From a virus, in the IMG/VR virus record IMGVR_UViG_3300038701_001690, positions 1-50,130 of that record: a DNA stretch of 50,130 nucleotides. The stretch is one strand, 5' to 3'. How positions within the stretch are numbered: the first letter of the stretch is position 1; each line of letters begins with the position of its first letter. The notes below the pieces were generated by a model. It had not been told where the DNA came from and searched no databases. It was given only the letters and a program-made list of their open reading frames with translations. Below, one piece after another: positions 1-50,130 of this stretch. The translations under genes were made by a program, and so were the position numbers.

Positions 1-127
1 TGTTGTTCTATATCTGGGATTCTCATAAAACTCTCTTTATTTATCTAAATTTACTTTTTTATTTATTTTGTTCAAATTGCAGAAAAGTTTAAAAAGCTTC
101 TTGATTTATATTAAATTGTAATATACA
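1..127. repeat. Direct terminal repeat, left copy (identical to 50004-50130)
   Basis: Exact 127-nt identity read at both window ends. It closes the contig into a 50,003-bp circle. Confidence 0.95.
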
Positions 128-144
128 TTTAATTATTGCAGTTC
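101..144 (+). promoter_or_regulatory. Early-class promoter with GCAGTTC box (head of island A)
   Basis: TTGATT(101-106), 17 nt, TACATT(124-129), 8 nt, GCAGTTC(138-144). GGAGAAA SD follows, then ATG at 167. Confidence 0.6.
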
Positions 145-166
145 ACTAAATAACGGAGAAATATAA

Positions 167-9185: not shown

Positions 9186-9217
9186 AAACTATCTCTGTTA
9201 CAAGGATCGTTCAAATT
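9186..9217 (-). promoter_or_regulatory. Candidate late-class promoter upstream of the portal gene
   Basis: Minus strand reads AATTTGAAC, 17 nt, TAGTTT. -35 at 9209-9214, -10 at 9186-9191. Confidence 0.3.
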
Positions 9218-11687
9218 ATAGCCACATGGCTCTAGCTTCCTTTTTAGGCTTGTTAATCATTTCTGTTATCCCAGTGACGCAATCCGGTGCATCATCGTGC
9301 GTATTAGCTTTAAACGCTCGCTTAAATTTTGTCAAATGAGTATAGAATACCGGCCAGCGTACATCCCATCCTTCAGGCATGATAAGCATTTCATTTACCG
9401 TTGCTGAGTTTGAAATAATCCGTGCTTCTTTGTTGTCCGATTGGTGAAACCATCTTATTTTACATGTTGCCGGAGTGAGCTCATCGACTTTTCTCGCATA
9501 TCCTCTGCCTCCATTGTTGCTTTCAATGTCGGCTTCTCTGGTATTATTTCTCTTGAGCATTCCGGCAACCAAAGGCTCTGTAACCTCCATAGGTGCATCA
9601 GTGTAAGAAACATCAATAACATATGCAAGACCGTCACTTGTCTCATCGTAATCTATAGAACAAAGGAAGTCATCGCCAGTATCAGCCGTGTCAGTATAAT
9701 TTTTCCGACAAATAACATTATCGGGCAAATCTCTATATGTTTTAAACGGCTTATAAAGTAAGCCCTCTGTGCTTTCTGGATTTCCTTGATAGAGAGAATT
9801 GAACTTAATTGGATCTTTACCACGTGAGTTCTTAAGCTTCTTAAGTGAATGTCTCTCAGGCCAAAGAGGTTCTTCTTTATTTCTTGGATCTAAATCGGTT
9901 GATTCATTCTCTTTTATTGCTTGGAAATTAACCTTAAACCAACAATCTGAATTTTTGTGCTCTTCGATATCCTCAAAGCTTTTTATTTCAATGACGGTTT
10001 CTTTTGATTCTATAAAACCAACAAGATCTTCTTCGTGCCAACGGGTGAAAACAATCAACTGCTGTGAGTCATTGTGTAAACGGGTATCTGCTACAGTGGT
10101 ATACCAATCTATAACATTTTGTCTTATTGTTGGTGAATTGGCCTCTTTCCAGTCTTTATAAAGGTCATCCATTAGAAGAACGTCAACCGGATCGCCAGTT
10201 AAACCACCCTGATAACCAACCATTTTCAAAGATCCTGTATGATCAACAATCTCCATTTCTTCGGCAGTGTTTATCTTTGTAACATCTTTCTTTCCAGACA
10301 ATCGAGCATCAAATACATCTTGATAAGTCGGCTCACTCATAAGGTTCTTTACACCACGACCAAACTTTCTGGCTTTGGTTGCCGAATAACAAACAGTAGC
10401 AATCTTTAAATCAGGATCACGCCCAATCATCATAGCAGGAGTATAAATTGAAGAACCGTTACTATTATGAGTCAATACTAAATTTTCACCAACAAGATAA
10501 ACGCCTCCCTCAACAGTAATACACCTCCCACATACTGGATTTTTCAATTTAGTTATACTGGTTATTGATCTTCTTCTTTTTGGAAATGATATTTTTACTG
10601 GTCTCTTTCTGATCAATGCAACAGGGATATCAAAATGTGGATTAAAGCACAATTGATACACAGGGTTTCTCCCAATTATACCAGAAGATGAGACAACAGG
10701 AGGAAATTTACTTATGGTAACCCTACATCCAAGGCTGACAACTAATTTCTTAATGTCATCAATAAGAGTTTTATTACATCCAGAGTAAGTAATTCTTCCA
10801 TTTTTTTGATAGGTGTATCCATCTGTATCAATTAGACCTGCCAAAAGCTCAAGACGTTGCTCTGTTGATGATATTAGGTACTTTTCTGGAATGTGCTTAC
10901 TATTTAAAACGCCTATATCTCTTAATTTCCCTCTAAGATCCCTGAAATATGTGGTGTGAACATTTGTCTGTGGATGGATTGCGCAAGAGGTTGATCGAAG
11001 ACCAAGTTTTTTTATTTTTTCAACAACTTCCATATCTTCATGAGAATGATTTATAGTTGGCCTACCAGAACTCCCATCTCCAAGCCAAGCGCCTAAAACA
11101 TACGGGTGAACTTCTAACTGTTTCTTATCAAAATCAACAGATGTATTGTAATCTACAGAAAATCTTCCTCTCCCTCCGCGCTTATTTTTTTTACCTATCC
11201 AAATCCCCCTTTGAATCATTTGTTGAGTTTCTAAAGTTACCTCTCTTCTTTTATCTCTGTCCATAACCACCCATTCATGGCGTGCGTGACATTTAATTTC
11301 AGAACCATCTATGAATTTAACTAAATGATCAGCTTTATTCTCTTTATGGACTTCAAGAACTTTAACAGGATTGCCTTCTCTGCCAAATACAAAATCGCCC
11401 TCTTTGATGTCGCCATGTGTGGCCCATCCCTTAGTGGTGAGAATAGGCGTATCATCAGAAATCAGCTTGCCATGTTGCGGTGGACAACTAACAATAAGCT
11501 TCTTAATATCTCCGTGGATGAACTTATCTAATATTTTATAATAAGTTTTATGAAACGGGGAGCTGTGAAACTTCGGCATTGTATAACGCGCCAAAGCTAA
11601 AGAGTGATTCCTTGCGAAGTTTATCTTCCGGAGTTTTACTTCTTGGTCTGCAAGGAGTATGTCTTCATTCGTAATCGCTAAACTCAT
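9216..11687 (-). CDS. terL: Terminase large subunit, interrupted by an intein in the Walker A loop
   Basis: The PPQHGK / S P-loop is split at aa 74/409. The C-terminal half has terminase ATPase/nuclease character. Follows TerS. Confidence 0.9.
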   Translation of the reverse strand: MSLAITNEDILLADQEVKLRKINFARNHSLALARYTMPKFHSSPFHKTYYKILDKFIHGDIKKLIVSCPPQHGKLISDDTPILTTKGWATHGDIKEGDFVFGREGNPVKVLEVHKENKADHLVKFIDGSEIKCHARHEWVVMDRDKRREVTLETQQMIQRGIWIGKKNKRGGRGRFSVDYNTSVDFDKKQLEVHPYVLGAWLGDGSSGRPTINHSHEDMEVVEKIKKLGLRSTSCAIHPQTNVHTTYFRDLRGKLRDIGVLNSKHIPEKYLISSTEQRLELLAGLIDTDGYTYQKNGRITYSGCNKTLIDDIKKLVVSLGCRVTISKFPPVVSSSGIIGRNPVYQLCFNPHFDIPVALIRKRPVKISFPKRRRSITSITKLKNPVCGRCITVEGGVYLVGENLVLTHNSNGSSIYTPAMMIGRDPDLKIATVCYSATKARKFGRGVKNLMSEPTYQDVFDARLSGKKDVTKINTAEEMEIVDHTGSLKMVGYQGGLTGDPVDVLLMDDLYKDWKEANSPTIRQNVIDWYTTVADTRLHNDSQQLIVFTRWHEEDLVGFIESKETVIEIKSFEDIEEHKNSDCWFKVNFQAIKENESTDLDPRNKEEPLWPERHSLKKLKNSRGKDPIKFNSLYQGNPESTEGLLYKPFKTYRDLPDNVICRKNYTDTADTGDDFLCSIDYDETSDGLAYVIDVSYTDAPMEVTEPLVAGMLKRNNTREADIESNNGGRGYARKVDELTPATCKIRWFHQSDNKEARIISNSATVNEMLIMPEGWDVRWPVFYTHLTKFKRAFKANTHDDAPDCVTGITEMINKPKKEARAMWL
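10464..11465 (-). mobile_element. Intein (334 aa) with LAGLIDADG homing endonuclease, class-3-like
   Basis: Block A LISDDTPILT, block B HARHEW, LGAWLGDGSS and LAGLIDTDGY motifs, block F GRCITVEG, block G LVLTHN followed by +1 Ser. Confidence 0.8.
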
Positions 11688-13336: not shown

Positions 13337-13621
13337 TTATATAAACTCTGTATCGCCTTCAAGTATTGCAATTGAATCCTGATTGTACTTCACCTTCAAT
13401 GTAATAAGATGTTTTTTCATCCAATAAATAACATCATTCTCAGCCTCTACTACTATGCAGAAATTTTGCCAAGGAAGACTTCCATCAGATGAAGCGCAAA
13501 AATGTATTATAGTGTCTTCGTAGCTTTCACAAATTGCTTTGATATCATTGCAGAATTCACTCCACTCCTCTTGCGTTAACTTATCGTCTGTATTTCCGAT
13601 CTGTATACATATTGTGTTCAC
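13337..13621 (-). CDS. Hypothetical protein
   Basis: GTG at 13621 has a GGAGAAAG SD, like sibling boxed leaders. The track's ATG at 13642 abuts the GCAGTTC box and has no SD. Confidence 0.5.
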   Translation of the reverse strand: MNTICIQIGNTDDKLTQEEWSEFCNDIKAICESYEDTIIHFCASSDGSLPWQNFCIVVEAENDVIYWMKKHLITLKVKYNQDSIAILEGDTEFI

Positions 13622-13643: not shown

Positions 13644-13650
13644 GAACTGC
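13644..13650 (-). promoter_or_regulatory. GCAGTTC box copy
   Basis: Minus strand reads taatGCAGTTCtatgataaaGGAGAAAgttagaGTG. Weak TAAAGT -10 lies 9 nt upstream. No clear -35. Confidence 0.45.
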
Positions 13651-13726
13651 ATTACTAAAACTTTACGGCTTAACCCTCCCCCTCTCCCATTAAGATATCA
13701 AAGATTAAGGATTTTTCAAAAGCTAT

Positions 13727-13978
13727 TCAAATAACTCCTATCGTCCTTTTCAACACTTCAGCCGTTTTCCTCATCCTGTCTTTTACTTTTATATTGAGAT
13801 TCCCTGAAGGCTCGCTGATATGCTCCTCAATAATCTTAACTTCGTATTCATCGCTTATAATCCTGAACACCTTAATAAACTTTTCTGGAATGCTTGCCCG
13901 CATTACTTCAATGCACGGATTATCCATAAAAAAGCTTAATATTTCCTCAAGGCTTTCTTCGTCTTCTCCGTTTTCCAT
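13727..13978 (-). CDS. Hypothetical acidic protein (83 aa)
   Basis: ORF track. ATG start, tight spacing to neighbours. Confidence 0.5.
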   Translation of the reverse strand: MENGEDEESLEEILSFFMDNPCIEVMRASIPEKFIKVFRIISDEYEVKIIEEHISEPSGNLNIKVKDRMRKTAEVLKRTIGVI

Positions 13979-13979
13979 T

Positions 13980-14264
13980 TTACAGGGACTCCACTAATTC
14001 AATAAAATCACTCTTCCTCAAGCACTGAGCGATTGTAAACTTATTGATAAATTCAAGGAACTTGCTTTCTTTTGCATCAAGCGGGCTTAACTCTTCCAGC
14101 TTTTTAATTATCGTCTTCGAAAACTGTAAAACAGTATGCTCATATGAAGAAGCTGATAATTGCCGGACAAAAGAACGCCAAGCGATATTCTTTCCTTGGT
14201 TGGTTATTATTTCATTTGCTGAATATGACGTTTCAGTCTTTAGAAAGTTTTCAATTTTTTTCAT
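13980..14264 (-). CDS. Hypothetical protein
   Basis: Start moved to ATG 14264, just after the upstream stop at 14269. The track start at 14309 is TTG. Confidence 0.5.
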   Translation of the reverse strand: MKKIENFLKTETSYSANEIITNQGKNIAWRSFVRQLSASSYEHTVLQFSKTIIKKLEELSPLDAKESKFLEFINKFTIAQCLRKSDFIELVESL

Positions 14265-14268
14265 TTCT

Positions 14269-14523
14269 TTAATCCTTCTTCCAAGTAGTATAATTAACTT
14301 CAATCTCAACTAATAATTTAAATTCATTCTCACACTCCTCACATTCAATTTCAATTTCATGCTGTTCACCGCTATATTCCCAACTATCCATAAACTCGCA
14401 TCCACAATGAGGGCACGTTATCATACAAGCGCTAGAAGTTGAAACTGGAGAATCTTTAAAATTTTTGATCTTCCAATATATTTCAGAATTCCTATAATAA
14501 AGACCATCTGCATTAAATGGCAT
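14269..14523 (-). CDS. Zinc-ribbon protein
   Basis: ATG at 14523 with GGGGAGG SD. CPHCGCEF ... CEECENEF. Confidence 0.5.
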   Translation of the reverse strand: MPFNADGLYYRNSEIYWKIKNFKDSPVSTSSACMITCPHCGCEFMDSWEYSGEQHEIEIECEECENEFKLLVEIEVNYTTWKKD

Positions 14524-14534
14524 ATCGACCTCCC

Positions 14535-14810
14535 CTAATTCCACGCTGATCTAATTAAATTCTTATGTTGATTCTCCCATCTTCCGGCAGATGTCAACGG
14601 CTCACAATCAATCATTTCTTCAAATCTTTTAATAGCCATAAAAACACCATTCTTCAAAGTGAAGAAATCAAGACTGCTTATCTCTTCCAAAATCTTCTTG
14701 AGTCCTTCAATCGCCTTAAGGACATCTTCAGAATTAAAATTATCTGGATTTTGAACTATCGGCAAATAACTATTTGTTTTATCTCTGTATGATCTTTCAA
14801 TTTTTGTCAT
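14535..14810 (-). CDS. Hypothetical protein
   Basis: ATG at 14810. The track start at 14837 is a TTG inside the GCAGTTC box. Confidence 0.5.
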   Translation of the reverse strand: MTKIERSYRDKTNSYLPIVQNPDNFNSEDVLKAIEGLKKILEEISSLDFFTLKNGVFMAIKRFEEMIDCEPLTSAGRWENQHKNLIRSAWN

Positions 14811-14828
14811 TGTTGAATCTCTTGTTTT

Positions 14829-14872
14829 GAACTGCAATACTTAATAATAATATGAAATTGTAATAAATTCAA
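14829..14872 (-). promoter_or_regulatory. Early-class promoter with GCAGTTC box
   Basis: Minus strand: TTGAAT(14867-14872), 17 nt, TATTAT(14844-14849), 8 nt, GCAGTTC(14829-14835). Confidence 0.6.
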
Positions 14873-14891
14873 TATATATTAATAAATAATA

Positions 14892-15065
14892 TCAATCTTT
14901 TTTACTTTTCTTTCTAAAAGCCGGTTCATTTACATATCTATGCAAGCACCAGAAACACCCCTCTTGCGTGGCCTTACCGGAAGTAATAACCAAGTGAGGA
15001 TTTCCACATATATTGCAAATATCAGGAAGCGCCATTACTGAGAAATCACCGACTTCTATTATCAT
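14892..15065 (-). CDS. Zinc-ribbon mini-protein (57 aa, below ORF-track cutoff)
   Basis: Hand translation: MIIEVGDFSVMALPDICNICGNPH...CFWCLHRY. ATGA overlap with the YopX-like gene. Confidence 0.4.
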   Translation of the reverse strand: MIIEVGDFSVMALPDICNICGNPHLVITSGKATQEGCFWCLHRYVNEPAFRKKSKKD

Positions 15066-15391
15066 TTTAGTAGATCCTCGTTATCATGAATATTGCCTAT
15101 GACTTCACCATCACTTACCCTGTCTACACAGTATCCGTTATTCCAAACAAACATTCCTTCTTCTTCACACCAAGTTACTGTAGCAATTTTATGTCCATTT
15201 TCCCAAGGGCATCTAGCTATATCACCTTCGTAAACTTCAGTACCGTTCTTATCCTTAAGTCCGGTGAATTGTTCGATGATAGAATTATCATGAGGATTTG
15301 TTATAGAGTTCACATGCATTTTACCAAGAACCAATGAATTCACCCATCCACCACGTGCCTTATTCCAAGCTCTAAATTTAAACCTGCTCAT
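15062..15391 (-). CDS. YopX-like protein
   Basis: Product from ATG 15391 begins MSRFKFRAWNK. Also FTGLKDKNGTEVYEGDI and EVIGNIHDNEDLL, classic YopX motifs. Confidence 0.75.
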   Translation of the reverse strand: MSRFKFRAWNKARGGWVNSLVLGKMHVNSITNPHDNSIIEQFTGLKDKNGTEVYEGDIARCPWENGHKIATVTWCEEEGMFVWNNGYCVDRVSDGEVIGNIHDNEDLLK

Positions 15392-15579
15392 TTGCAGCCA
15401 CCTTTGTTCATACAACACACAACCGATACAAATATACATATAAAAGTTATAGTCTTATTCCACTCGATCATATTAAAATTATCTCCGTAAAATAAACTCG
15501 TTGCATTCCCAAGAACTCCTACAGCTACAACCTTAAAAACGATGTAACAAAAACAAAAGAAATATATGAGATCCTTCAT
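15388..15579 (-). CDS. Small membrane protein (63 aa)
   Basis: Two hydrophobic segments. ATGA overlaps on both sides. Confidence 0.45.
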   Translation of the reverse strand: MKDLIYFFCFCYIVFKVVAVGVLGNATSLFYGDNFNMIEWNKTITFICIFVSVVCCMNKGGCK

Positions 15580-15776
15580 TTAAATTCCTTTTTTCTTAAT
15601 TCTCTGTCAACTTCAAGTATCACCGACTGAAACAAACCAATCGGCCATAATGGAATCATCAACAAGCAAAAGAAGAATAACTTCAAGCAAAGTTTGTCTC
15701 GAGCCATTACAAGAAGCATTCCAAGAGCAAAGCATAAAGATCCAACAATTGTGTAATAAGTAACAGCGTCAATCAT
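15576..15776 (-). CDS. Small membrane protein (66 aa)
   Basis: Two predicted TM helices and a charged C-terminus. ATGA overlaps. Confidence 0.5.
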   Translation of the reverse strand: MIDAVTYYTIVGSLCFALGMLLVMARDKLCLKLFFFCLLMIPLWPIGLFQSVILEVDRELRKKEFK

Positions 15777-15970
15777 TTCTTAAGCTCCATAACCAACTTC
15801 ATCCCCTTGCAGAAAAATATAAATTCATTGGGGTTCATAAAGACAACTCTGTTATTCTCGACAGTTAAAGCCAACTCCAAGCCGTCAATCTCTACCTCTG
15901 CACCTTTCTCAATTACCCATTCTTTCCACTTCTGGAAGTTTTCAATTGCAAAAAAATCACTCACCGTCAA
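15773..15970 (-). CDS. Hypothetical protein, non-ATG start
   Basis: ORF track. Only TTG (15970) or GTG (15964) starts are available. Confidence 0.4.
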   Translation of the reverse strand: MTVSDFFAIENFQKWKEWVIEKGAEVEIDGLELALTVENNRVVFMNPNEFIFFCKGMKLVMELKK

Positions 15971-16247
15971 CCGCCCTTAGTAATTCTTTGGCCTTCTTTT
16001 CTGTTTTGGATAACCTGACAAGGCGATTATATGCCTTCTCGTTATTCTTTAAGTACTTGACTATATTGCACCGGCTAACAGCGTTTAAAATGGTTTTGTT
16101 AACTCGCGTCTTTGCCTTACACCAATTACTCACCGTCATTTTGTCCAACTCCAACCACTGAACAACCTCAGCCTGATTAAGAGGATAAATTGCATCTGAG
16201 AACTTTTTTGCATTGTCTTTGAATTCTTCTTTAACCTTTAAACCCAT
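15957..16247 (-). CDS. Putative HTH DNA-binding protein
   Basis: GGAGG SD. LNQAEVVQWLELDKMTVSNWCKAK looks like an HTH. Confidence 0.5.
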   Translation of the reverse strand: MGLKVKEEFKDNAKKFSDAIYPLNQAEVVQWLELDKMTVSNWCKAKTRVNKTILNAVSRCNIVKYLKNNEKAYNRLVRLSKTEKKAKELLRAVDGE

Positions 16248-16422
16248 AAATGACCTCCACTATTAACTTAATTATGTACATGTAAATAAATCCAAAAATA
16301 AAAACTCCAGCGTAAATGAGAAGCTTTTCAAGAAACTTACATCTTAAATTTTCTCTTCTTTCCGTTGCTATTTCACGCTGTTTCTCTTTGCGCTCTAAAT
16401 GTGTTATGATGTCAGCTTTCAT
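16231..16422 (-). CDS. Small protein with C-terminal TM helix
   Basis: ATG at 16422 (ATGA overlap). The track start at 16437 is TTG. Hydrophobic LLIYAGVFIFGFIYMYII. Confidence 0.45.
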   Translation of the reverse strand: MKADIITHLERKEKQREIATERRENLRCKFLEKLLIYAGVFIFGFIYMYIIKLIVEVIYGFKG

Positions 16423-16667
16423 AGTCTGTAATCCCAAAAATCAATCATATCTACTATCCCATTCCCAACTTCATATTTTGTTATGATAAAATCAAAACCT
16501 TCAGGAATAGTCATAGGCCTTAACATCCTACAAAGAGAAATGTCCTTAAACGTGGCGATAATTTCACCGGTATCTTCAGGCGTATCAACTTTTATCATTC
16601 TGACCTGATAAAGAAGCTGACCTTTCTTAAATTCGTCAACGTCAAATAAATATTGTTCGGTAGCCAT
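16419..16667 (-). CDS. Hypothetical protein (82 aa)
   Basis: ORF track. ATG start. Confidence 0.5.
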   Translation of the reverse strand: MATEQYLFDVDEFKKGQLLYQVRMIKVDTPEDTGEIIATFKDISLCRMLRPMTIPEGFDFIITKYEVGNGIVDMIDFWDYRL

Positions 16668-16669
16668 AA

Positions 16670-17026
16670 TTAAACCTCTAACCTCTTTGATTTAACTCCT
16701 TCTAAGAGTTCAGATATTCTACTTTGACCATTTTCAAACCCGTGAGTATATCGAAATCCTTTTAACTTCTGTCCAAGTTTTATAACTGCGTCAACTGGAT
16801 CATTTAAATTGAAACTCTCATAAGTGCACTCTTGATAAAACTGGCCACATGACTCACATTCATCACCGTTCTTATCAACCTTATTAAAGAAAATAAGATA
16901 CCAATCACCCATTGTACCCCTACAATCCAATAAGAAATAAGACCATTTATCCAAATCGATTTCTTCATCAGTTATAACAAACCAATCAAGAGAGTATCTG
17001 AATTTTTTAAGTTTTATTTTATTCAT
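16670..17026 (-). CDS. Hypothetical protein (118 aa)
   Basis: ORF track. ATG start. Confidence 0.5.
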   Translation of the reverse strand: MNKIKLKKFRYSLDWFVITDEEIDLDKWSYFLLDCRGTMGDWYLIFFNKVDKNGDECESCGQFYQECTYESFNLNDPVDAVIKLGQKLKGFRYTHGFENGQSRISELLEGVKSKRLEV

Positions 17027-17028
17027 AA

Positions 17029-17574
17029 CTAAACCTTCAGCCTATAACAAACGCCGGTTAATATGAAATGTCCTTGTTTATTTGAATTGGGGAATTGAAA
17101 AGCCGTGAAACCGCCGTGCTGTTTGATTATATCAATCTGACAGTTCAAATCGCCAATGATGCCGATAAGCTTTTGTTTATGATCATATAGAACATCAACT
17201 TCACTTTTGACTTTATCGGTAAATACCGGATGTTCTTTGCTTGGGGAAAAATCCAACTTGTATTGATTTTCCTCATCTCCTGACAAATGCCTTTCAGCCT
17301 CTTTATTTTCATCGAATGCAACCGGCCTTGGAAAAAGTTTTCCTGAGTTAACGCAGTGTTTATTGTAAGCCTCTTGAATCTTCCTTACATTTTCAACTCT
17401 GAGATATTTCTGTTCTCTATGTTTGCCGTGGAAAATCTTAATAAGTTGAGTTTTGGAAACTCCGACAACTTCAGCCAGCTCCTGAAATGTTCCCCAGTCG
17501 TTTTTCATCCTGAGGCTTTTCACTTGGTCTTGAATTAGGTTGAATAATGTTTCTGTGTTTAAAATTGATTTCAC
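17029..17574 (-). CDS. Putative HTH regulator, first gene after a boxed promoter
   Basis: GTG start with GGAGAAAG SD. N-terminal GTFQELAEVVGVSKTQLIKIFHGK looks like an HTH. Confidence 0.55.
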   Translation of the reverse strand: MKSILNTETLFNLIQDQVKSLRMKNDWGTFQELAEVVGVSKTQLIKIFHGKHREQKYLRVENVRKIQEAYNKHCVNSGKLFPRPVAFDENKEAERHLSGDEENQYKLDFSPSKEHPVFTDKVKSEVDVLYDHKQKLIGIIGDLNCQIDIIKQHGGFTAFQFPNSNKQGHFILTGVCYRLKV

Positions 17575-17597
17575 TTACTTTCTCCGTCATGTTTAAT

Positions 17598-17642
17598 GAA
17601 CTGCAACAATTCTATATTATATTAGTTTTTAATATATTTCAA
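17598..17642 (-). promoter_or_regulatory. Early-class promoter with GCAGTTC box
   Basis: Minus strand: TTGAAA(17637-17642), 17 nt, TAATAT(17614-17619), 9 nt, GCAGTTC(17598-17604). Confidence 0.65.
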
Positions 17643-17663
17643 CTCTATATTTAAAAATAATAC

Positions 17664-17697
17664 AAAAAAATGCCCCGTGCTGTTCAGGCTACGGGGC
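17664..17697 (-). terminator. Rho-independent terminator
   Basis: GCCCCGT(17672-17678) pairs with ACGGGGC(17691-17697). A T7 run follows on the minus strand (A-run 17664-17670). Lies downstream of the gene ending at 17788. Confidence 0.75.
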
Positions 17698-17787
17698 TTG
17701 CAGTTCTACAGAGAAGGGCATTGCACCCATTGTAGATTTTTAATTATAAGTCAATAATGCTATCTTTTCCAGTAGATATTAAAATAA

Positions 17788-17976
17788 TTAATTCCCATAC
17801 TTTTTGCTCAATTCCAAAGTTTCATTTAAATAATCATTCTCCTTTCCTCCAAGAACATCTTCAATAAGCTTAATTGAAGTGTTATGATTCTTGCCATTTT
17901 CATAATTGAGGGATATGGCCAACTTTTTAAGTTGTCTGATGATATAATTTTTATGCTTGCAGTTGACACACATCAT
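17788..17976 (-). CDS. Hypothetical protein (62 aa)
   Basis: ORF track. TAATG overlap with the upstream gene. Confidence 0.45.
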   Translation of the reverse strand: MMCVNCKHKNYIIRQLKKLAISLNYENGKNHNTSIKLIEDVLGGKENDYLNETLELSKKYGN

Positions 17977-18365
17977 TATTTCTCAATCAACCTCAATTCT
18001 TTACTTTTAATATCGATGACATAAAGGTTTATTTTTATCGACTTAATGCGGATCAATAACCGTACCCTATCAATATACTTTTGATCTTTTACGGGATCTT
18101 TCACTATTAAAATCAACCCTGCATGAAGTCCAGTTTTAGCGCTGTAATACAGACATTGACCTATTCCTTCATATGCTTTGTAGGCCCAATCAACCTCGAA
18201 AGCGACACCCTCTGTCAAAATGTCAACTCTGGTTTTATCAGACATGACAACTTCAGTTTTGCCATTGAGTATTTTTGCGCAAATATCCTGATAGTATGCT
18301 TCGTTTTCAGCTTCTACTGATGATATAAACAGTATAAAAAATGCAAACAAATAAATTTTAATCAT
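17976..18365 (-). CDS. Secreted protein with signal peptide
   Basis: ATG at 18365 (GAGG SD) gives MIKIYLFAFFILFISSVEA followed by ENEAYY. The longer track start overlaps the upstream gene. Confidence 0.55.
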   Translation of the reverse strand: MIKIYLFAFFILFISSVEAENEAYYQDICAKILNGKTEVVMSDKTRVDILTEGVAFEVDWAYKAYEGIGQCLYYSAKTGLHAGLILIVKDPVKDQKYIDRVRLLIRIKSIKINLYVIDIKSKELRLIEK

Positions 18366-18367
18366 AA

Positions 18368-18580
18368 TTAAACCTCTATTATTCCTCTTGGAAACCATTC
18401 CATATCAGGGGGATTTGGTGAATATGTAGTGAAGAAAGAACCTTTAAAAATTTCCATGGCTCTATCTCTTCCTCTTCCTGAATTGTCCGCCTTAATTAAA
18501 GCAACACAATCCTTATCAAAAGTTTTTCCATTTATTGAGTGAACATGGACTTGACCAAAAGTTACATATGTATTAACCAT
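18368..18580 (-). CDS. Hypothetical protein (70 aa)
   Basis: ORF track. ATG start. Confidence 0.5.
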   Translation of the reverse strand: MVNTYVTFGQVHVHSINGKTFDKDCVALIKADNSGRGRDRAMEIFKGSFFTTYSPNPPDMEWFPRGIIEV

Positions 18581-18737
18581 TTCTCTTTCCCTTTTTTTCT
18601 TCTCTCCAGTGAATACTTAATTTTGAATGATCCTTAAAAGATCTTGTATAATCATTGCTTAGAAATGATGGCATAAATTCATCGTGAACACTTTTGAAGA
18701 ACTTTTTCATCTTTGGTGTAAATATATCAAAGCTCAT
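18573..18737 (-). CDS. Hypothetical protein (54 aa, below ORF-track cutoff)
   Basis: Hand translation: MSFDIFTPKMKKFFKSVHDEF... GGAGAG SD lies directly after the GCAGTTC box at 18754-18760. Confidence 0.4.
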   Translation of the reverse strand: MSFDIFTPKMKKFFKSVHDEFMPSFLSNDYTRSFKDHSKLSIHWREEKKGKRNG

Positions 18738-18753
18738 TTACTTACTCTCCTTT

Positions 18754-18760
18754 GAACTGC
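18754..18760 (-). promoter_or_regulatory. GCAGTTC box copy
   Basis: Minus strand reads acatGCAGTTCaaaGGAGAGtaagtaaATG. TATAAA lies 7 nt upstream. -35 is weak. Confidence 0.4.
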
Positions 18761-18776
18761 ATGTTTTTTTATATTA

Positions 18777-19122
18777 TCAATCATTCCTATTATGAGTGAT
18801 TTTAGCTTTTACTGATCCTTGGCTACAATTGACACAGAAACAATAAAGCTTCTGGCCTTTTTCAATTATATCCACATCTTCATTTTGGGGTTTATAAAAA
18901 AGATTCTCTCCGCAAGAGCACCTTCTGTTATGTTGCTGATATAATACCTTCCTTGGCTGTGAATGATGCACGATGTTTGGATTCCCATTTAAAGTTGAAG
19001 TCTTTATACGTTTGACCGGTCTGGCAATATGTAAGTATATCACATAGCCACTTTCGAGCAAAATTATATTTCTCTATTTCGCTCATGTCTCGATTTAAAC
19101 AAACTGAATATCTTTTTAACAT
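18777..19122 (-). CDS. Cys-rich protein split over two overlapping frames (possible frameshift or two genes)
   Basis: Frame A (19122-18928) has ATG and GAGG SD. Frame B (to 18777) has no ATG, only TTG at 19061, and carries CSCG...CFCVNC. Confidence 0.3.
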
Positions 19123-19128
19123 GGCCCC

Positions 19129-19749
19129 TTATCCTCTCACTGGCATCAATATAATTTTTCTTTCAGATCCTATAAATTCAATCCTTAGTGGATTCATCAT
19201 AACTGAACTTCTAGAAGAGAATAAATTAAATGTACTGTTTTTTGCTATACACTTTTTAAACTTATCCTTCATAATATTAAATCCATCAAGAATCACATAT
19301 CCATCTTTTTCTTTGATTGATTCTGAATCTATTAAAGAACCATCGTACTTTTCAGTATTTTTAATAACTACAGGAAAGTTTGGCATGTTTAAATTATGAT
19401 CTTCTAATTTTTTCTCTTCAAAATAAGCACCATCATCAAGGTTAGTTTTGCAATAAGCCAATATACGCCCACATGATCCGTACATTATTTTATCTTTAAC
19501 CCAAACAACAGAAAGAGATCTTCTTGTGTAGTCGTTTGATAAAAACATATTAGCCCAATTGTAGTCCGAGGGATCATGCATATAATTTATTAATCTCGTT
19601 GCATGATTTTCCACATCTAATGGAAATTCCACTTCGCTATTAGCCAGTGAATTTATCTCAACCATTAGATCACTGCATTCTCTTTCAATATCATCAGCCC
19701 AAGATTCAATATCTCTGACCATATCTATTATTGCTTTTATTCTTCCCAT
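19129..19749 (-). CDS. Hypothetical protein (206 aa)
   Basis: ATG at 19749 after the upstream TGA at 19752. The track start at 19755 is TTG. Confidence 0.55.
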   Translation of the reverse strand: MGRIKAIIDMVRDIESWADDIERECSDLMVEINSLANSEVEFPLDVENHATRLINYMHDPSDYNWANMFLSNDYTRRSLSVVWVKDKIMYGSCGRILAYCKTNLDDGAYFEEKKLEDHNLNMPNFPVVIKNTEKYDGSLIDSESIKEKDGYVILDGFNIMKDKFKKCIAKNSTFNLFSSRSSVMMNPLRIEFIGSERKIILMPVRG

Positions 19750-19751
19750 GA

Positions 19752-19949
19752 TCAATTTCCCTTTTTATCTGGATGAATGAATTTCTGAGATTGCCCACAC
19801 TCACAGCAAATAAATCCTATGACTTTATAATTTGCATGAAAAATGTTTTTTTGTTCTATTTTTTTAAGATCCCCCTGAAGTATCTCAAGAGTAGAGAAAC
19901 AATTTATACATATTTGTTTTTGAGGAAATGTTGATTTAATTACTTTCAC
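19752..19949 (-). CDS. Zinc-ribbon protein
   Basis: GTG start with GGAGAAAG SD after a GCAGTTC box. CINCFS ... CCECGQ. Confidence 0.5.
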   Translation of the reverse strand: MKVIKSTFPQKQICINCFSTLEILQGDLKKIEQKNIFHANYKVIGFICCECGQSQKFIHPDKKGN

Positions 19950-19972
19950 TTTTACTTTCTCCGTTTGTTTTT

Positions 19973-19979
19973 GAACTGC
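19973..19979 (-). promoter_or_regulatory. GCAGTTC box copy preceded by a hairpin
   Basis: Minus strand reads gacGCAGTTCaaaaacaaacGGAGAAAgtaaaaGTG. The CTTGG/CCAAG hairpin at 19994-20008 lies upstream. Confidence 0.4.
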
Positions 19980-24051: not shown

Positions 24052-24093
24052 TTGAAATCTCTTATTTGGCGGTATATGATAGTATTGCAGTTC
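24052..24093 (+). promoter_or_regulatory. Early-class promoter with GCAGTTC box (recombination cassette)
   Basis: TTGAAA(24052-24057), 17 nt, TATGAT(24075-24080), 6 nt, GCAGTTC(24087-24093). Confidence 0.7.
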
Positions 24094-28422: not shown

Positions 28423-28635
28423 ATGATTAATAACTTGAAGGTTTTTATGGTTTCAAAAAACTACTATTCCGATATTTCTTTTGAGCAGTTCAGGGAAATT
28501 ATCGATCCAAATAAAACGATGACACAGATTCAAATTGCGGATCACTTAGACGTTAGCCAAGCGTCAATCTCCTTATGGAAGAAAAACAATAAGATCCCCA
28601 AAGTGTTTGAAATAATAGCGAGGGGGAGAGTGTGA
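28423..28635 (+). CDS. Cro/XRE-like HTH protein
   Basis: MTQIQIADHLDVSQASISLWKKNNKIP is a typical HTH. Divergent from the REC cassette. Confidence 0.6.
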   Translation: MINNLKVFMVSKNYYSDISFEQFREIIDPNKTMTQIQIADHLDVSQASISLWKKNNKIPKVFEIIARGRV

Positions 28636-28856
28636 GGAAAAAAAAGTCTAGTAAGAACAGTTCTCAGATAATGAATAAAATTAGAAAGCTTTCAAAACTA
28701 CTAGACCGAAAAATTGAACACGCTGGAAACAACTTTGATTGTCAGATGTTTTTTAAGTATGTTGAAGATAAGGAGTTATTGACAACCATACGAAAGGGAG
28801 GTTATGTATCAGACCAGACCTTAAGACAAATGTTCGAGAGATACAAAATAAAATAA
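28632..28856 (+). CDS. Hypothetical basic protein (74 aa)
   Basis: GTG start (GTGA overlap) with GGGGGAG SD. Confidence 0.5.
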   Translation: MRKKKSSKNSSQIMNKIRKLSKLLDRKIEHAGNNFDCQMFFKYVEDKELLTTIRKGGYVSDQTLRQMFERYKIK

Positions 28857-28863
28857 TTGAATT

Positions 28864-28870
28864 GCAGTTC
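28864..28870 (+). promoter_or_regulatory. GCAGTTC box copy
   Basis: gaattGCAGTTCaaaGAGGaagtATG. TAAAAT lies 9 nt upstream. -35 is weak. Confidence 0.4.
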
Positions 28871-28881
28871 AAAGAGGAAGT

Positions 28882-38903: not shown

Positions 38904-38936
38904 AAAATATAATTCAGCGTGAGCTGTATTCAAATT
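38904..38936 (-). promoter_or_regulatory. Candidate late-class promoter restarting the baseplate operon after island B
   Basis: Minus strand reads AATTTGAAT(-35 at 38928-38933), 17-18 nt, TATTTT/ATATTT. The leader would be very short. Confidence 0.3.
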
Positions 38937-38969
38937 ATGAAAAAGTTTGAAGAATTGTTTTAAATGGAC

Positions 38970-39013
38970 TTGTTTTGTATTATTTCTTAATATATAGTTA
39001 GTTATTGCAGTTC
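38970..39013 (+). promoter_or_regulatory. Early-class promoter with GCAGTTC box (head of island B)
   Basis: TTGTTT(38970-38975), 17 nt, TATAGT(38993-38998), 8 nt, GCAGTTC(39007-39013). Confidence 0.6.
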
Positions 39014-39037
39014 GATAAATAACAACGGAGAAAGAAG

Positions 39038-39296: not shown

Positions 39297-39321
39297 GGCC
39301 CTTCGGGGCTTAACGCAGTTC
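39297..39321 (+). promoter_or_regulatory. UUCG-tetraloop hairpin followed by a GCAGTTC box copy
   Basis: GGCCC-ttcg-GGGCT (39297-39310), then taac, then GCAGTTC(39315-39321), then aGGAGAAAtaaGTG. Confidence 0.4.
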
Positions 39322-48870: not shown

Positions 48871-48940
48871 TGCTTACTTCCTGTTTTAAAAATAAAGTTT
48901 TACCAAGTTCAATTTAGATTCAATTAAAAGTTTCTTCAAA

Positions 48941-50029
48941 TTATACATCTGTGTAATCAATTTCATCCTGAGCAATAATTCTTCCGGTGTCTTCGTGAAT
49001 GTAATCTGAGTTTATTTTTCTGACTGCATAACTATCAGCAATATAAGTGTCGCAACTCGTTATATTAACATTACAAGCGAAGTCATAACGGTGAATATAA
49101 TAAGAGGCGTTATAAGTTTCTATACCGTCAGCTATGTAATACATCATATTCATTTTTGACGTTAAAGAAGAATCGGGAATATAGCCAACCAGTAAAGATA
49201 AGATTGCATTTCTTAGATCGTTTCTTGCTATGTCCTGACCTTGAACGGCAGAAACTTTATCCTGCACTGGGAATATTGCGAATATGCTTATATTTTCCTG
49301 AGTGTGAATAATCCTTGAATCACCTTCTTGGAAAGTTCTTTCAAAATCGGTGTCATTATTTCTATCTCTTGAAGATGCAGTTGCACCTGCAATAACAAAA
49401 AGCCAAAGCTTCTCAACTGGTTGAGCTGTATAAGAGTCTAAAATTCTTGACAAATCAACATCAGAAGAAACACAAACATCATTTACATTTATATAAGAAG
49501 GCGTTCCAATCAAAGATCCATCAGGAGCGTTAACTGTTGATACTTCAAAATCTCCGGCATTAACAGCGGTAACAGTAAACCTTGAGTTATATCTTGGAAG
49601 GTCAAGTTCATTTACTACCGGCGATCCTGTAGGCTCTCCAGTAATAGAATTTGAGCATTCAATTTCTACCTGATATCTCGAAGGTACTGAAATAATAATA
49701 AAGGTGTCGTTCCACTCTGCCTCAGTTGCTCCGGTGATTGTAACGGTGGTATTAAACCCTTCTGTAAATTCGTGAACTTCATCAACCTCTATAATTGCAC
49801 TTTGAGAAGTAGCGGAAAGATTCACAGTAACAGAGTTTATAGAATTTTGATAAGTTAATCCAGTAATAATAACATCGTCATTAACGGATGGAAGATCTTC
49901 TGCGCTGACTACGGTCATAACATTTGAAGAAACGCTTGCGCTTGTTCCAGCTTTGAAGTCTCCTGAAAATGAAGGATATGCAACCGGTAAATTTTCTCTG
50001 AGGTGTTGTTCTATATCTGGGATTCTCAT
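48941..50029 (-). CDS. Virion structural protein, first gene of the tail module (tail completion/terminator-like C-terminus?)
   Basis: 362 aa. aa 75-135 carry the same repeat module as the J-like protein. Function is uncertain. Confidence 0.4.
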   Translation of the reverse strand: MRIPDIEQHLRENLPVAYPSFSGDFKAGTSASVSSNVMTVVSAEDLPSVNDDVIITGLTYQNSINSVTVNLSATSQSAIIEVDEVHEFTEGFNTTVTITGATEAEWNDTFIIISVPSRYQVEIECSNSITGEPTGSPVVNELDLPRYNSRFTVTAVNAGDFEVSTVNAPDGSLIGTPSYINVNDVCVSSDVDLSRILDSYTAQPVEKLWLFVIAGATASSRDRNNDTDFERTFQEGDSRIIHTQENISIFAIFPVQDKVSAVQGQDIARNDLRNAILSLLVGYIPDSSLTSKMNMMYYIADGIETYNASYYIHRYDFACNVNITSCDTYIADSYAVRKINSDYIHEDTGRIIAQDEIDYTDV

Positions 50030-50130
50030 AAAACTCTCTTTATTTATCTAAATTTACTTTTTTATTTATTTTGTTCAAATTGCAGAAAAGTTTAAAAAGC
50101 TTCTTGATTTATATTAAATTGTAATATACA
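50004..50130. repeat. Direct terminal repeat, right copy (identical to 1-127)
   Basis: Exact identity read by eye. Confidence 0.95.
50051..50082 (-). promoter_or_regulatory. Candidate late-class promoter for the tail module (also present as 48-79)
   Basis: Minus strand reads CAATTTGAAC, 16 nt, TAAATT. -35 at 50073-50078, -10 at 50051-50056. Same -10 and flanks as 13296-13330. Confidence 0.45.

What the first reader, a model, noticed from the sequence alone, without database searches (positions are those of the whole stretch)
13644..19979. Oriented GCAGTTC box heads every early cassette (five minus-strand copies here, five more on the plus strand)
**Copies.** The heptamer GCAGTTC, usually xTGCAGTTCA, occurs co-oriented with the downstream gene at these positions:
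- Minus strand: 13644, 14829, 17598, 18754, 19973.
- Plus strand: 138, 24087, 28864, 39007, 39315.

**Context.** In every case the box lies 11-24 nt upstream of the first start codon of a run of small genes. An A-rich stretch and a GGAGAAA(G) Shine-Dalgarno sequence follow it.

**Promoter geometry.** Five copies (138, 14829, 17598, 24087, 39007) have a TTGAxx/TTGTTT -35, an exact 17-nt spacer and a TAnnAT -10 ending 6-9 nt before the box. This places the box at or near +1.

**Specificity.** No late gene has the box.

**Statistics.** From composition I estimate only about three chance hits for this 7-mer on both strands (rough estimate, not computed). Two probable chance or orphan hits exist at 1421 and 17700.

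**Interpretation.** The box looks like a phage-specific temporal-class signal. It could be an initial-transcribed or discriminator element, an operator for one of the phage HTH proteins, or a 5'-UTR tag acting on mRNA stability or translation.
Basis: seen in the sequence. Interest (0 to 1): 0.65.

Follow-up and report, generated by a model that had tools for sequence, protein, structure and literature searches.

The report
Early-leader tag matched by antisense RNA
Ten early gene cassettes of an uncultivated 50-kb phage carry the same 7-base tag (GCAGTTC) in their leaders, and the phage also holds a small-RNA-like element complementary to that tag and the adjacent ribosome-binding site, so one RNA may control the whole early gene set.

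Summary
GCAGTTC occurs 16 times against 4.8 expected. Eleven copies lie in the 5.5% of the genome that is intergenic. Ten of them head gene cassettes, co-oriented, 11-24 nt before the start codon.

Five sit 6-9 nt after TTGxxx-17-TAnnnT promoters. Five have no such promoter, and one of these lies about 115 nt into a leader. So the box is not simply a start-site element.

An ~80-85% identical relative keeps the box at every homologous site, even where the flanks have diverged. It also uses the box on cassettes that the window lacks. More distant relatives lack it.

On the minus strand it reads GAACUGCAA in the single-stranded linker of a conserved ~72-nt unit: TATAAT promoter, 5' hairpin, linker, intrinsic terminator. 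The 8 nt just upstream (UUCUCUGU) complement the second leader block, AC(G/A)GAGAA, which is the Shine-Dalgarno region. All 18 leaders in three genomes form this two-arm duplex (-17 to -21 kcal/mol).

Best reading: the box is the target site of a phage antisense small RNA that occludes the ribosome-binding sites of the early regulon. This is inferred from sequence only; there are no expression data. Confidence is about 0.5. It would be a new variant of phage antisense control.

The parts
138..144 (+). Box copy heading the cassette that starts at 167. Promoter -35 is at 101-106 (TTGATT) and -10 at 124-129 (TACATT).
   Evidence: Promoter, box and Shine-Dalgarno sequence are conserved in L172 although the downstream gene differs.
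13644..13650 (-). Box copy without a nearby promoter, heading the gene whose GTG start is at 13621.
   Evidence: Longest contiguous pairing with the sRNA.
14829..14835 (-). Box copy. Promoter -35 is at 14867-14872 (TTGAAT) and -10 at 14844-14849 (TATTAT).
   Evidence: The homologue is REL 1741.
17598..17604 (-). Box copy heading the operon that starts with an XRE-like HTH gene (17029-17574). Promoter -35 is at 17637-17642 and -10 at 17614-17619.
   Evidence: In REL the promoter was replaced but the box was kept.
18754..18760 (-). Box copy without a convincing promoter.
   Evidence: The homologue REL 8343 keeps the box although the flanks are only 36% identical.
19973..19979 (-). Box copy about 115 nt downstream of a TTGAAA-17-TATACA promoter (20127-20099) and 13 nt after a hairpin.
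24087..24093 (+). Box copy heading the recombination block. Promoter -35 is at 24052-24057 (TTGAAA) and -10 at 24075-24080 (TATGAT).
   Evidence: The homologue is REL 12567.
28864..28870 (+). Box copy 8 nt after the upstream stop codon, heading a Bro-N gene. No convincing promoter.
   Evidence: The homologue is REL 16850.
39007..39013 (+). Box copy. Promoter -35 is at 38970-38975 (TTGTTT) and -10 at 38993-38998 (TATAGT).
39315..39321 (+). Box copy 6 nt after a GGCCC-UUCG-GGGC hairpin. No promoter; 1-nt spacer to the Shine-Dalgarno sequence.
17664..17736 (-). Candidate small RNA of about 72 nt: 5' hairpin, single-stranded anti-leader segment, intrinsic terminator with a U7 tail.
   Evidence: MFE -26.2 kcal/mol, z = -2.85. 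About 97% identical in REL; both stem substitutions keep pairing and the 2-nt indel lies in an internal loop. No Rfam family matches.
17743..17771 (-). Predicted promoter of the small RNA: TGGAAA, 17 nt, TATAAT.
   Evidence: The counterpart in REL is TAGACT-17-TATAAT. The TATAAT is conserved although the upstream genes are not homologous.
17698..17706 (-). Arm B (anti-box), GAACUGCAA, complementary to UUGCAGUUC.
17708..17715 (-). Arm A, UUCUCUGU, complementary to the leader Shine-Dalgarno block AC(G/A)GAGAA.
17672..17697 (-). Terminator hairpin of the small RNA, followed by U7 at 17671-17664.

Best explanation
**What the box is.** GCAGTTC (extended TATT-GCAGTTC-AAAA) is an RNA-level tag in the 5' leader of the phage's early cassettes. 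Together with the Shine-Dalgarno block AC(G/A)GAGAA a few bases downstream, it forms a two-part target site for a phage-encoded antisense small RNA.

**The small RNA.** It is made from the minus strand at about 17736-17664. It would come either from its own TGGAAA-17-TATAAT promoter or as the 3' end of the upstream operon. It has a 5' hairpin, an exposed segment 5'-UUCUCUGU-A-GAACUGCAA-3', and an intrinsic terminator.

**How it would act.** Arm B pairs with the box, arm A pairs with the Shine-Dalgarno block, and the variable A-rich spacer loops out. This covers the ribosome-binding site. The most likely outcome is coordinated translational shut-off, and perhaps cleavage or decay, of all ten tagged cassettes once the small RNA has accumulated.

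**Shown:** the motif, its enrichment, orientation and conservation; the structure and conservation of the small-RNA-like unit; the two-arm complementarity.

**Inferred:** that the RNA is made, that pairing happens in the cell, and that the effect is repression.
For: **The box is real and orientation-locked.**
- 16 copies against 4.8 expected; 11 lie in the 5.5% of intergenic DNA.
- 17 gene-heading copies in two genomes are all co-oriented with the gene.

**It is not tied to the transcription start.** Five of ten copies lack a promoter at 6-9 nt, and their homologues in REL lack one too. One copy is about 115 nt downstream of a promoter.

**It is under selection.** The box is invariant in six homologous pairs, including two whose upstream flanks are only 36% identical. 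Spacers carry indels. The box also heads cassettes found only in REL.

**The one reversed intergenic copy is part of a conserved unit.**
- It is conserved in REL.
- It sits in the unpaired linker of a hairpin-linker-terminator unit preceded by a perfect TATAAT.
- The unit is conserved even though the upstream gene is not homologous.
- The unit is about 97% identical between genomes, against 73-86% for most shared genes.

**A second, independent arm.**
- The 8 nt next to the anti-box complement the Shine-Dalgarno block.
- RGAGA occurs in 9/10 box leaders against 7/82 others (p = 1e-7).
- Box leaders pair better with arm A (p = 3e-6) but not with a canonical 16S tail (p = 0.21).

**Pairing energies.**
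- All 18 leaders give the two-arm duplex, -17 to -21 kcal/mol.
- With full-length folding, ddG is -12.6 to -18.8 against -3.8 +/- 2.4 for 82 control leaders.
- The shuffled segment gives -6.95 +/- 1.39 against -19.46 observed.

**Phyletic pattern.** Box and unit occur together in the window and REL. Neither is seen in more distant relatives.
Against: - There are no expression data.
- Only two genomes carry the unit, and box and arms are identical in both, so there is no covariation test.
- The small RNA's -35 is weak (4/6).
- The last three bases of arm A lie in the weak lower stem of the 5' hairpin.
- Conservation of TA at -4/-3 is not explained by pairing. It may reflect the start site or promoter function.
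- Read on the plus strand, the unit looks like a collapsed leader (box, 1 nt, ACAGAGAA, compare 39315). It could be an inverted relic next to terminators.
- Leaders may share the Shine-Dalgarno block by descent from duplicated promoter-leader modules, which inflates the statistics.
- The host is unknown, so nothing can be said about chaperones or RNases.
Confidence: 0.5

Rival explanations
1. The box is an RNA tag read by a protein rather than by an RNA. Candidates are a phage or host endoribonuclease that cuts polycistronic early transcripts into cassettes, a RegA/RegB-like translational repressor, or a ribosome or S1 enhancer. The reversed copy would then be a coincidence or a relic.
For: - Orientation-locked leader position, with and without promoters.
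- Two promoterless boxes follow hairpins that lack U-tracts and could protect an upstream 3' end after cleavage.
- The leaders are unstructured, so the box is a linear motif.
- T4 uses proteins in this way on early mRNAs (PMC3014915).
Against: - No RegA, RegB, RNase or RNA-binding domain was found among the small proteins. Most have no annotation, so this is weak evidence.
- It does not explain why the only reversed intergenic copy lies in an exposed linker of a conserved hairpin-terminator unit, with an adjacent arm that matches the Shine-Dalgarno block.
Confidence: 0.2
2. The box works on DNA. It would be a promoter-proximal or initial-transcribed element, or an operator or half-site, for a phage DNA-binding protein such as one of the HTH proteins. 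That protein would repress or activate early transcription. The reversed copy about 100 bp upstream of the 17598 box would be a second site for autoregulation of the HTH operon.
For: - In five window copies and five REL copies the box starts 6-9 nt after a -10 hexamer, at or near +1.
- TATT upstream of the box is conserved.
- HTH genes are present: 17029-17574, 28423-28635 and 15957-16247.
- The 28864 box lies in an imperfect palindrome, TTGAAtTGCAgTTCAA.
Against: - Half of the copies have no promoter at that distance, and one is about 115 nt downstream of a promoter.
- The heptamer is asymmetric.
- The strict 17:1 orientation bias is not expected of a roadblock repressor.
- It does not explain the match between arm A and the Shine-Dalgarno block.
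Confidence: 0.15
3. The box has no regulatory role of its own. It is the conserved joint of duplicated promoter-leader modules, kept by descent or as micro-homology for cassette shuffling.
For: - Promoter-leader modules are repeated within and between genomes. REL 3665 and 8724 are identical over the 45 nt before the box, and the window's 138, 39007 and 14829 promoters are about 80% alike.
- The same promoter and box head different genes in the window and in L172.
- The phage encodes a PDDEXK exonuclease.
Against: - The box is invariant where both flanks have diverged to 36% identity and where spacers carry indels.
- It also occurs at promoterless junctions with unrelated flanks.
- Seven to fifteen bases is short for homology-driven exchange.
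- Descent alone does not predict a conserved antisense copy in an RNA-like unit.
Confidence: 0.1

Closest known systems
P1/P7 c4 antisense RNA (PMC12197685) and P4 CI RNA (from my own knowledge of the P4 immunity literature)
   Same: A phage-encoded, structured small RNA acts in trans. Short exposed segments pair with complementary sites in the phage's own early leader, around the ribosome-binding site, and block expression.
   Different: - c4 and CI act on one operon with one or two sites, and they are processed out of that same transcript. Here ten separate cassettes carry the site, and the RNA looks like an independent promoter-to-terminator unit.
- There is no sequence or structure match to any Rfam family, which would include C4 if Rfam holds it as I recall.
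- No lysogeny module was seen.
T4 RegB endoribonuclease and RegA translational repressor (PMC3014915)
   Same: Global post-transcriptional shut-off of many early mRNAs through a short motif in or next to the ribosome-binding site (GGAG for RegB). Middle and late messages are spared.
   Different: The effectors are proteins. No RegA or RegB homologue was detected. Here the motif has two parts, and both are matched by an RNA.
Bacterial trans-acting small-RNA regulons, including 3'-UTR-derived small RNAs (general knowledge; examples in PMC12197685)
   Same: A seed region next to a Rho-independent terminator, pairing at the ribosome-binding site, and many targets sharing one short motif.
   Different: The targets are the phage's own early cassettes and carry an invariant, apparently dedicated tag. 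Pairing has two arms with a looped-out spacer. Dependence on a chaperone is unknown.
T4 promoter-early stem-loop (PeSL) repeats (from my own knowledge)
   Same: Repeated promoter-proximal modules head early cassettes and mark the joints where genes are shuffled.
   Different: PeSLs are defined by a stem-loop. No consistent structure exists at the box, and half of the boxes have no promoter.
ops / JUMPStart element read by RfaH (from my own knowledge)
   Same: A short, oriented leader element shared by a set of operons, independent of its distance from the promoter.
   Different: The ops sequence is unrelated. No NusG-like protein was found. ops does not explain the antisense unit.

Membership tests
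Trans-acting antisense small RNA with its own regulon (generic class) | A discrete non-coding transcription unit: promoter, stable structure and intrinsic terminator. | tested here: met
   - Promoters TGGAAA-17-TATAAT (window) and TAGACT-17-TATAAT (REL).
- Two hairpins plus a U7-9 tail; MFE -26.2 kcal/mol, z = -2.85.
- 19 pairs are kept, and a 2-nt indel rules out coding.
- These are predictions only.
Trans-acting antisense small RNA with its own regulon (generic class) | An accessible seed complementary to the target mRNAs at or near the ribosome-binding site. | tested here: met
   The linker is unpaired. All 18 leaders form the two-arm duplex.
Trans-acting antisense small RNA with its own regulon (generic class) | The RNA is expressed and changes target expression. 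| not testable with these tools
   No transcriptome is available and the host is unknown.
Trans-acting antisense small RNA with its own regulon (generic class) | Seed and target co-vary across relatives. | tested here: inconclusive
   Only the window and REL carry both, and the sequences are identical. More distant relatives carry neither.
   No Rfam hit at gathering score in the whole window. Only chance-level hits to unrelated families at E <= 10 in 17550-17850.
Sigma-70-type promoter element (initial-transcribed or discriminator) | A fixed position relative to a -10 hexamer at every copy. | tested here: not met
   Met for 5 of 10 copies, at 6-9 nt. The other five have no such promoter, and one is about 115 nt downstream of a promoter.
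Operator of a dimeric HTH repressor | Dyad symmetry, with no dependence on orientation relative to the gene. | tested here: not met
   The heptamer is asymmetric. Only the 28864 copy sits in an imperfect palindrome. Seventeen of 18 intergenic copies are co-oriented with the gene.
T4 RegB/RegA-type control | The phage encodes a RegB or RegA homologue. | tested here: inconclusive
   Pfam found none among about 70 small proteins, but most of them match nothing at all.
T4 PeSL repeats | A stem-loop next to an early promoter in each repeat. | tested here: not met
   No consistent pairing of or around the box in 17 leaders.

The most novel reading that the evidence does not exclude
A phage with no RNA polymerase or sigma factor detected runs its early-to-late switch with RNA alone. 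Every early cassette, whether at a promoter or inside an operon, carries a dedicated leader tag. One ~72-nt phage RNA pairs with the tag and the Shine-Dalgarno sequence together, and so shuts off or processes the whole early regulon at once. The same tag would serve as the joint at which cassettes and promoters are swapped, so any newly acquired gene comes under the switch automatically.
Probability: 0.4. Interest if true: 0.8.

Novelty: new variant of a known kind. Interest (0 to 1): 0.62.

Why it matters
Early-gene shut-off in lytic phages is known mainly through proteins such as T4 RegA/RegB and transcription shut-off factors (PMC3014915). The phage small RNAs surveyed in a recent review act on one phage gene or on host genes (PMC12197685).

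A single phage RNA controlling ten of its own cassettes through a dedicated, portable leader tag would be a simple and modular form of temporal control. It would also show how mosaic phages keep newly acquired genes under common regulation.

The pair is small: an 18-nt anti-leader and a leader of about 30 nt. It can therefore be tested in a heterologous reporter system even though the host is unknown, and it could be reused as a synthetic multi-gene switch.

Tried and rejected
**Searches for relatives and for the host**
- Megablast of two 8-kb regions against GenBank phages found no match.
- Protein searches with terminase, DnaB and sheath found only distant cultured relatives (25-46% identity), so the host stays unknown.
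- IMG/VR and metagenome relatives by terminase reach at most 73% identity. They have no Shine-Dalgarno sequences and no box.
- DnaB-based relatives L224-L227 (80-53% aa identity) have no intergenic box and no equivalent tag.
- Pattern scans of IMG/VR gave chance hits, except L172:
  - box plus Shine-Dalgarno patterns;
  - the 15-mer TATTGCAGTTCAAAA;
  - the small-RNA 23-mer, no hit.
- An 18-mer of the small RNA gave seven chance hits in GTDB genomes.
- DnaB and the 299-aa protein found nothing in IMG/VR.

**Known RNA families and structures**
- No Rfam match and no tRNA.
- The covariance model of the small RNA finds it only in the window and REL.
- No consistent local RNA structure exists at the box.

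**Ideas considered by eye and dropped**
- Sigma-54 -12 element: there is no GG at -24.
- MotA-box-like -30 element, or a phage-RNAP promoter: the leaders are too short to hold a downstream -10 and start site, and no RNAP or sigma was found.
- Bacteroidota -7 TAnnTTTG promoter: it does not fit, and Shine-Dalgarno sequences are widespread.
- tRNA T-arm mimic: there is no closing stem.
- Small ORF in the antisense unit: the 2-nt indel breaks the frame.

Full report
**What the window is.** The window has an exact 127-nt terminal repeat. A related contig bridges its two ends. It is therefore a complete genome of about 50,003 bp.

- Structural genes lie on the minus strand: terminase, portal, capsid, sheath, tape measure and baseplate.
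- They are interrupted by four plus-strand blocks of small genes. A long minus-strand block of small genes lies upstream of the terminase.
- Pfam scans of about 70 small proteins found no RNA polymerase, sigma factor or integrase. PHROGs scans of 20 large proteins found only structural, replication and methyltransferase families. About ten mid-sized proteins in the structural blocks were not scanned.
- No cultured phage is close, so the host is unknown.
- Shine-Dalgarno sequences are common, and several promoters fit TTGACA-17-TATAAT well.

- GCAGTTC occurs 16 times against 4.83 +/- 1.96 in shuffles.
- Eleven copies lie in the 2,776 nt of intergenic DNA (p = 2e-11). It is the most intergenic-enriched 7-mer. 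TGCAGTTC is intergenic in 9 of 9 copies.
They lie 11-24 nt before its start.
- The other five do not. The 19973 copy lies about 115 nt downstream of a TTGAAA-17-TATACA promoter. The 28864 copy is 8 nt after a stop codon, and the 39315 copy is 6 nt after a hairpin.
These look like chance: about five are expected, and 28485 is not conserved in the relative.

**Comparative evidence.** One relative, here called REL, comes from JGI sample 3300002231. I assembled 25 kb of it from two look-ups. Its shared genes are mostly 73-86% identical in DNA. A second fragment, L172, is 88% identical over the tail region.

- REL has ten GCAGTTC copies. Seven head cassettes and are co-oriented, one is the homologue of the window's 17700 copy, and two are in coding sequence.
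- In six homologous pairs the box is invariant. Upstream identity ranges from 93% down to 36%, and the spacer after the box carries indels.
- The box also heads cassettes found only in REL (7116, 8724). In L172 the 138 promoter and box precede a different gene.
- Eighteen aligned copies give the consensus TATT-GCAGTTC-AAAA.
- Relatives further away have no intergenic box and no obvious substitute. These are the contigs at up to 73% terminase identity and those at 80-53% DnaB identity.
- The signal is therefore specific to this lineage. That argues for a phage-encoded reader rather than a general host signal, with the caveat that the hosts may differ.

**The "orphan" at 17700.** Read on the minus strand, which is the direction of both flanking operons, the region has five parts:

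1. a promoter-like site, TGGAAA-17-TATAAT (17771-17743);
2. seven bases later, a hairpin;
3. an unpaired stretch, AACUGCAA;
4. a GC-rich hairpin;
5. a U7 tail.

The fold has MFE -26.2 kcal/mol and z = -2.85.

- In REL the upstream gene is unrelated. Even so, the unit from just before the TATAAT to the U-tail is about 97% identical.
- REL has its own TAGACT-17-TATAAT.
- The two substitutions fall in stems and keep pairing (G.U to G-C, and U-A to U.G). The 2-nt indel falls in an internal loop, which also rules out coding.
- No Rfam family matches.

**Two-arm complementarity.** The exposed segment is 5'-UUCUCUGU-A-GAACUGCAA-3'.

- Arm B is the complement of UUGCAGUUC, which is the box plus the two conserved T's before it.
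- Arm A is the complement of AC(G/A)GAGAA, allowing one G.U pair.
- All 18 leaders in the three genomes form the same duplex, with the A-rich spacer looped out, at -17 to -21 kcal/mol.
- When the whole RNA and 60-nt targets are folded together, the net gain is -12.6 to -18.8 kcal/mol. For 82 control leaders it is -3.8 +/- 2.4, with a minimum of -10.0.
- Shuffling the segment gives -6.95 +/- 1.39 against -19.46 observed. Among the 20 best-scoring intergenic windows, the only ones that are not the antisense strand of a leader are those covering this segment.
- The second arm is not just "a good Shine-Dalgarno sequence". RGAGA occurs at -22..-4 in 9/10 box genes against 7/82 others (p = 1e-7). 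Box leaders pair better with arm A (p = 3e-6) but no better with a canonical 16S tail (p = 0.21).
- My own rough estimates, not tool results: a 9-mer complement of the tag somewhere in the intergenic DNA has a chance of about 0.02. An adjacent 8-mer that pairs with the Shine-Dalgarno block has a chance of about 1e-3.

**Interpretation.** The simplest reading is that the box and the Shine-Dalgarno block form the target of a phage antisense small RNA.

- Pairing covers the ribosome-binding site, so repression of translation is the likely effect. Decay or cleavage at internal boxes is possible.
- The RNA has a host-type promoter and also forms the 3' end of an early operon. It would therefore build up during the early period and then shut the tagged cassettes off.
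- None of this is shown. It rests on sequence, predicted structure and two genomes with identical arms.

**Weak points.**

- The -35 is weak.
- Part of arm A lies in a weak stem.
- Conservation of TA at -4/-3 is not explained by pairing.
- Leaders may share the Shine-Dalgarno block by descent.
- The plus-strand reading of the unit looks like a collapsed leader, so an inverted relic cannot be excluded.

**Rivals.**

- *A protein reader of the RNA tag.* A nuclease or repressor of the T4 RegB/RegA kind (PMC3014915) fits the position and orientation. It does not explain the antisense unit.
- *A DNA-level element or operator.* This fits the five promoter-proximal copies and the conserved TATT. It fails at the five promoterless copies and does not fit the orientation bias.
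- *A mere recombination joint.* This fits the module shuffling. It does not fit invariance amid diverged flanks.

**Comparison with what is known.**

- The nearest systems are the P1/P7 c4 RNA (PMC12197685) and the P4 CI RNA (from my own knowledge). These are phage RNAs whose exposed segments pair with sites in the phage's own early leader at the ribosome-binding site. They control one operon and are processed from it.
- No Rfam family, which would include C4 if Rfam holds it as I recall, matches here. So this unit works like them but is not a member.
- The phage small RNAs mentioned in the passages I read of a recent review act on single phage genes or on host genes (PMC12197685).
- I therefore rate this as a new variant of a known kind. 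Confidence in the mechanism is about 0.5.

Noticed in passing
window 1-127 and 50004-50130: An exact 127-nt terminal repeat. A related contig (L172) bridges the two ends, so the window is a complete genome of about 50,003 bp, either circular or terminally redundant.
   Followed up: yes
window 8913, 9467, 9561, 14160, 25182, 26084, 26511, 29922, 37859, 42175, 44051, 48273: The 8-mer TTGCCGGA occurs 12 times against 0.9 expected (0 of 100 shuffles reach 12). By their coordinates all copies lie inside genes, on both strands and scattered. It is also present in REL (2 copies) and L172 (2 copies). Its function is unknown; it might be a methylation, uptake or Chi-like signal.
   Followed up: partly
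window 9210-9218, 38929-38937, 48935-48943 (minus strand); variants upstream of the genes that start at 50029 and 13244: (T/C)ATAATTTGAA sits upstream of three late operons (portal, baseplate block, sheath), and AATTTGAA variants precede two more. This may be a late-promoter signal: a -10-like hexamer plus TTGAA with no clear -35. The motif is not over-represented genome-wide (5 copies against 10.5 expected).
   Followed up: partly
window 17678-17686 (plus strand), the loop of the small-RNA terminator: The terminator loop reads UGAACAGCA on the minus strand. It differs from the anti-box UGAACUGCA by one base, so it may be a second, weaker seed or a trace of a duplication.
   Followed up: no
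window 28855-28873: The 28864 box lies in an imperfect 16-bp palindrome, TTGAAtTGCAgTTCAA, which is conserved in REL. It is directly downstream of a Cro-like HTH operon (28423-28856). This is the only box with such symmetry.
   Followed up: no
window 88-166, 38958-39033, 14825-14891; REL 3665 and 8724: Promoter-leader modules are repeated within and between genomes, at about 80% identity among the window's 138, 39007 and 14829 promoters. The REL 3665 and 8724 copies are identical over the 45 nt before the box. The same module heads different genes in different genomes, which points to cassette shuffling at the box.
   Followed up: partly
L121-L123, L179 (IMG/VR and JGI contigs, 73% terminase identity): The nearest terminase relatives have no Shine-Dalgarno sequences before their genes, as in Bacteroidota phages. 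The closest cultured terminase matches are Bacteroides and Porphyromonas phages at 45%. This phage, in contrast, uses Shine-Dalgarno sequences and TTGACA/TATAAT-type promoters, so the head module may have crossed host phyla.
   Followed up: partly
window 9216-11687 (minus strand): The large terminase ORF is 823 aa. In the 73%-identical relatives the matched stretch is only about 1.4 kb, and L122 has a 488-aa ORF there. The extra N-terminal half also hits DnaC- and primase-like PHROGs. This may be a fusion or a split gene.
   Followed up: no
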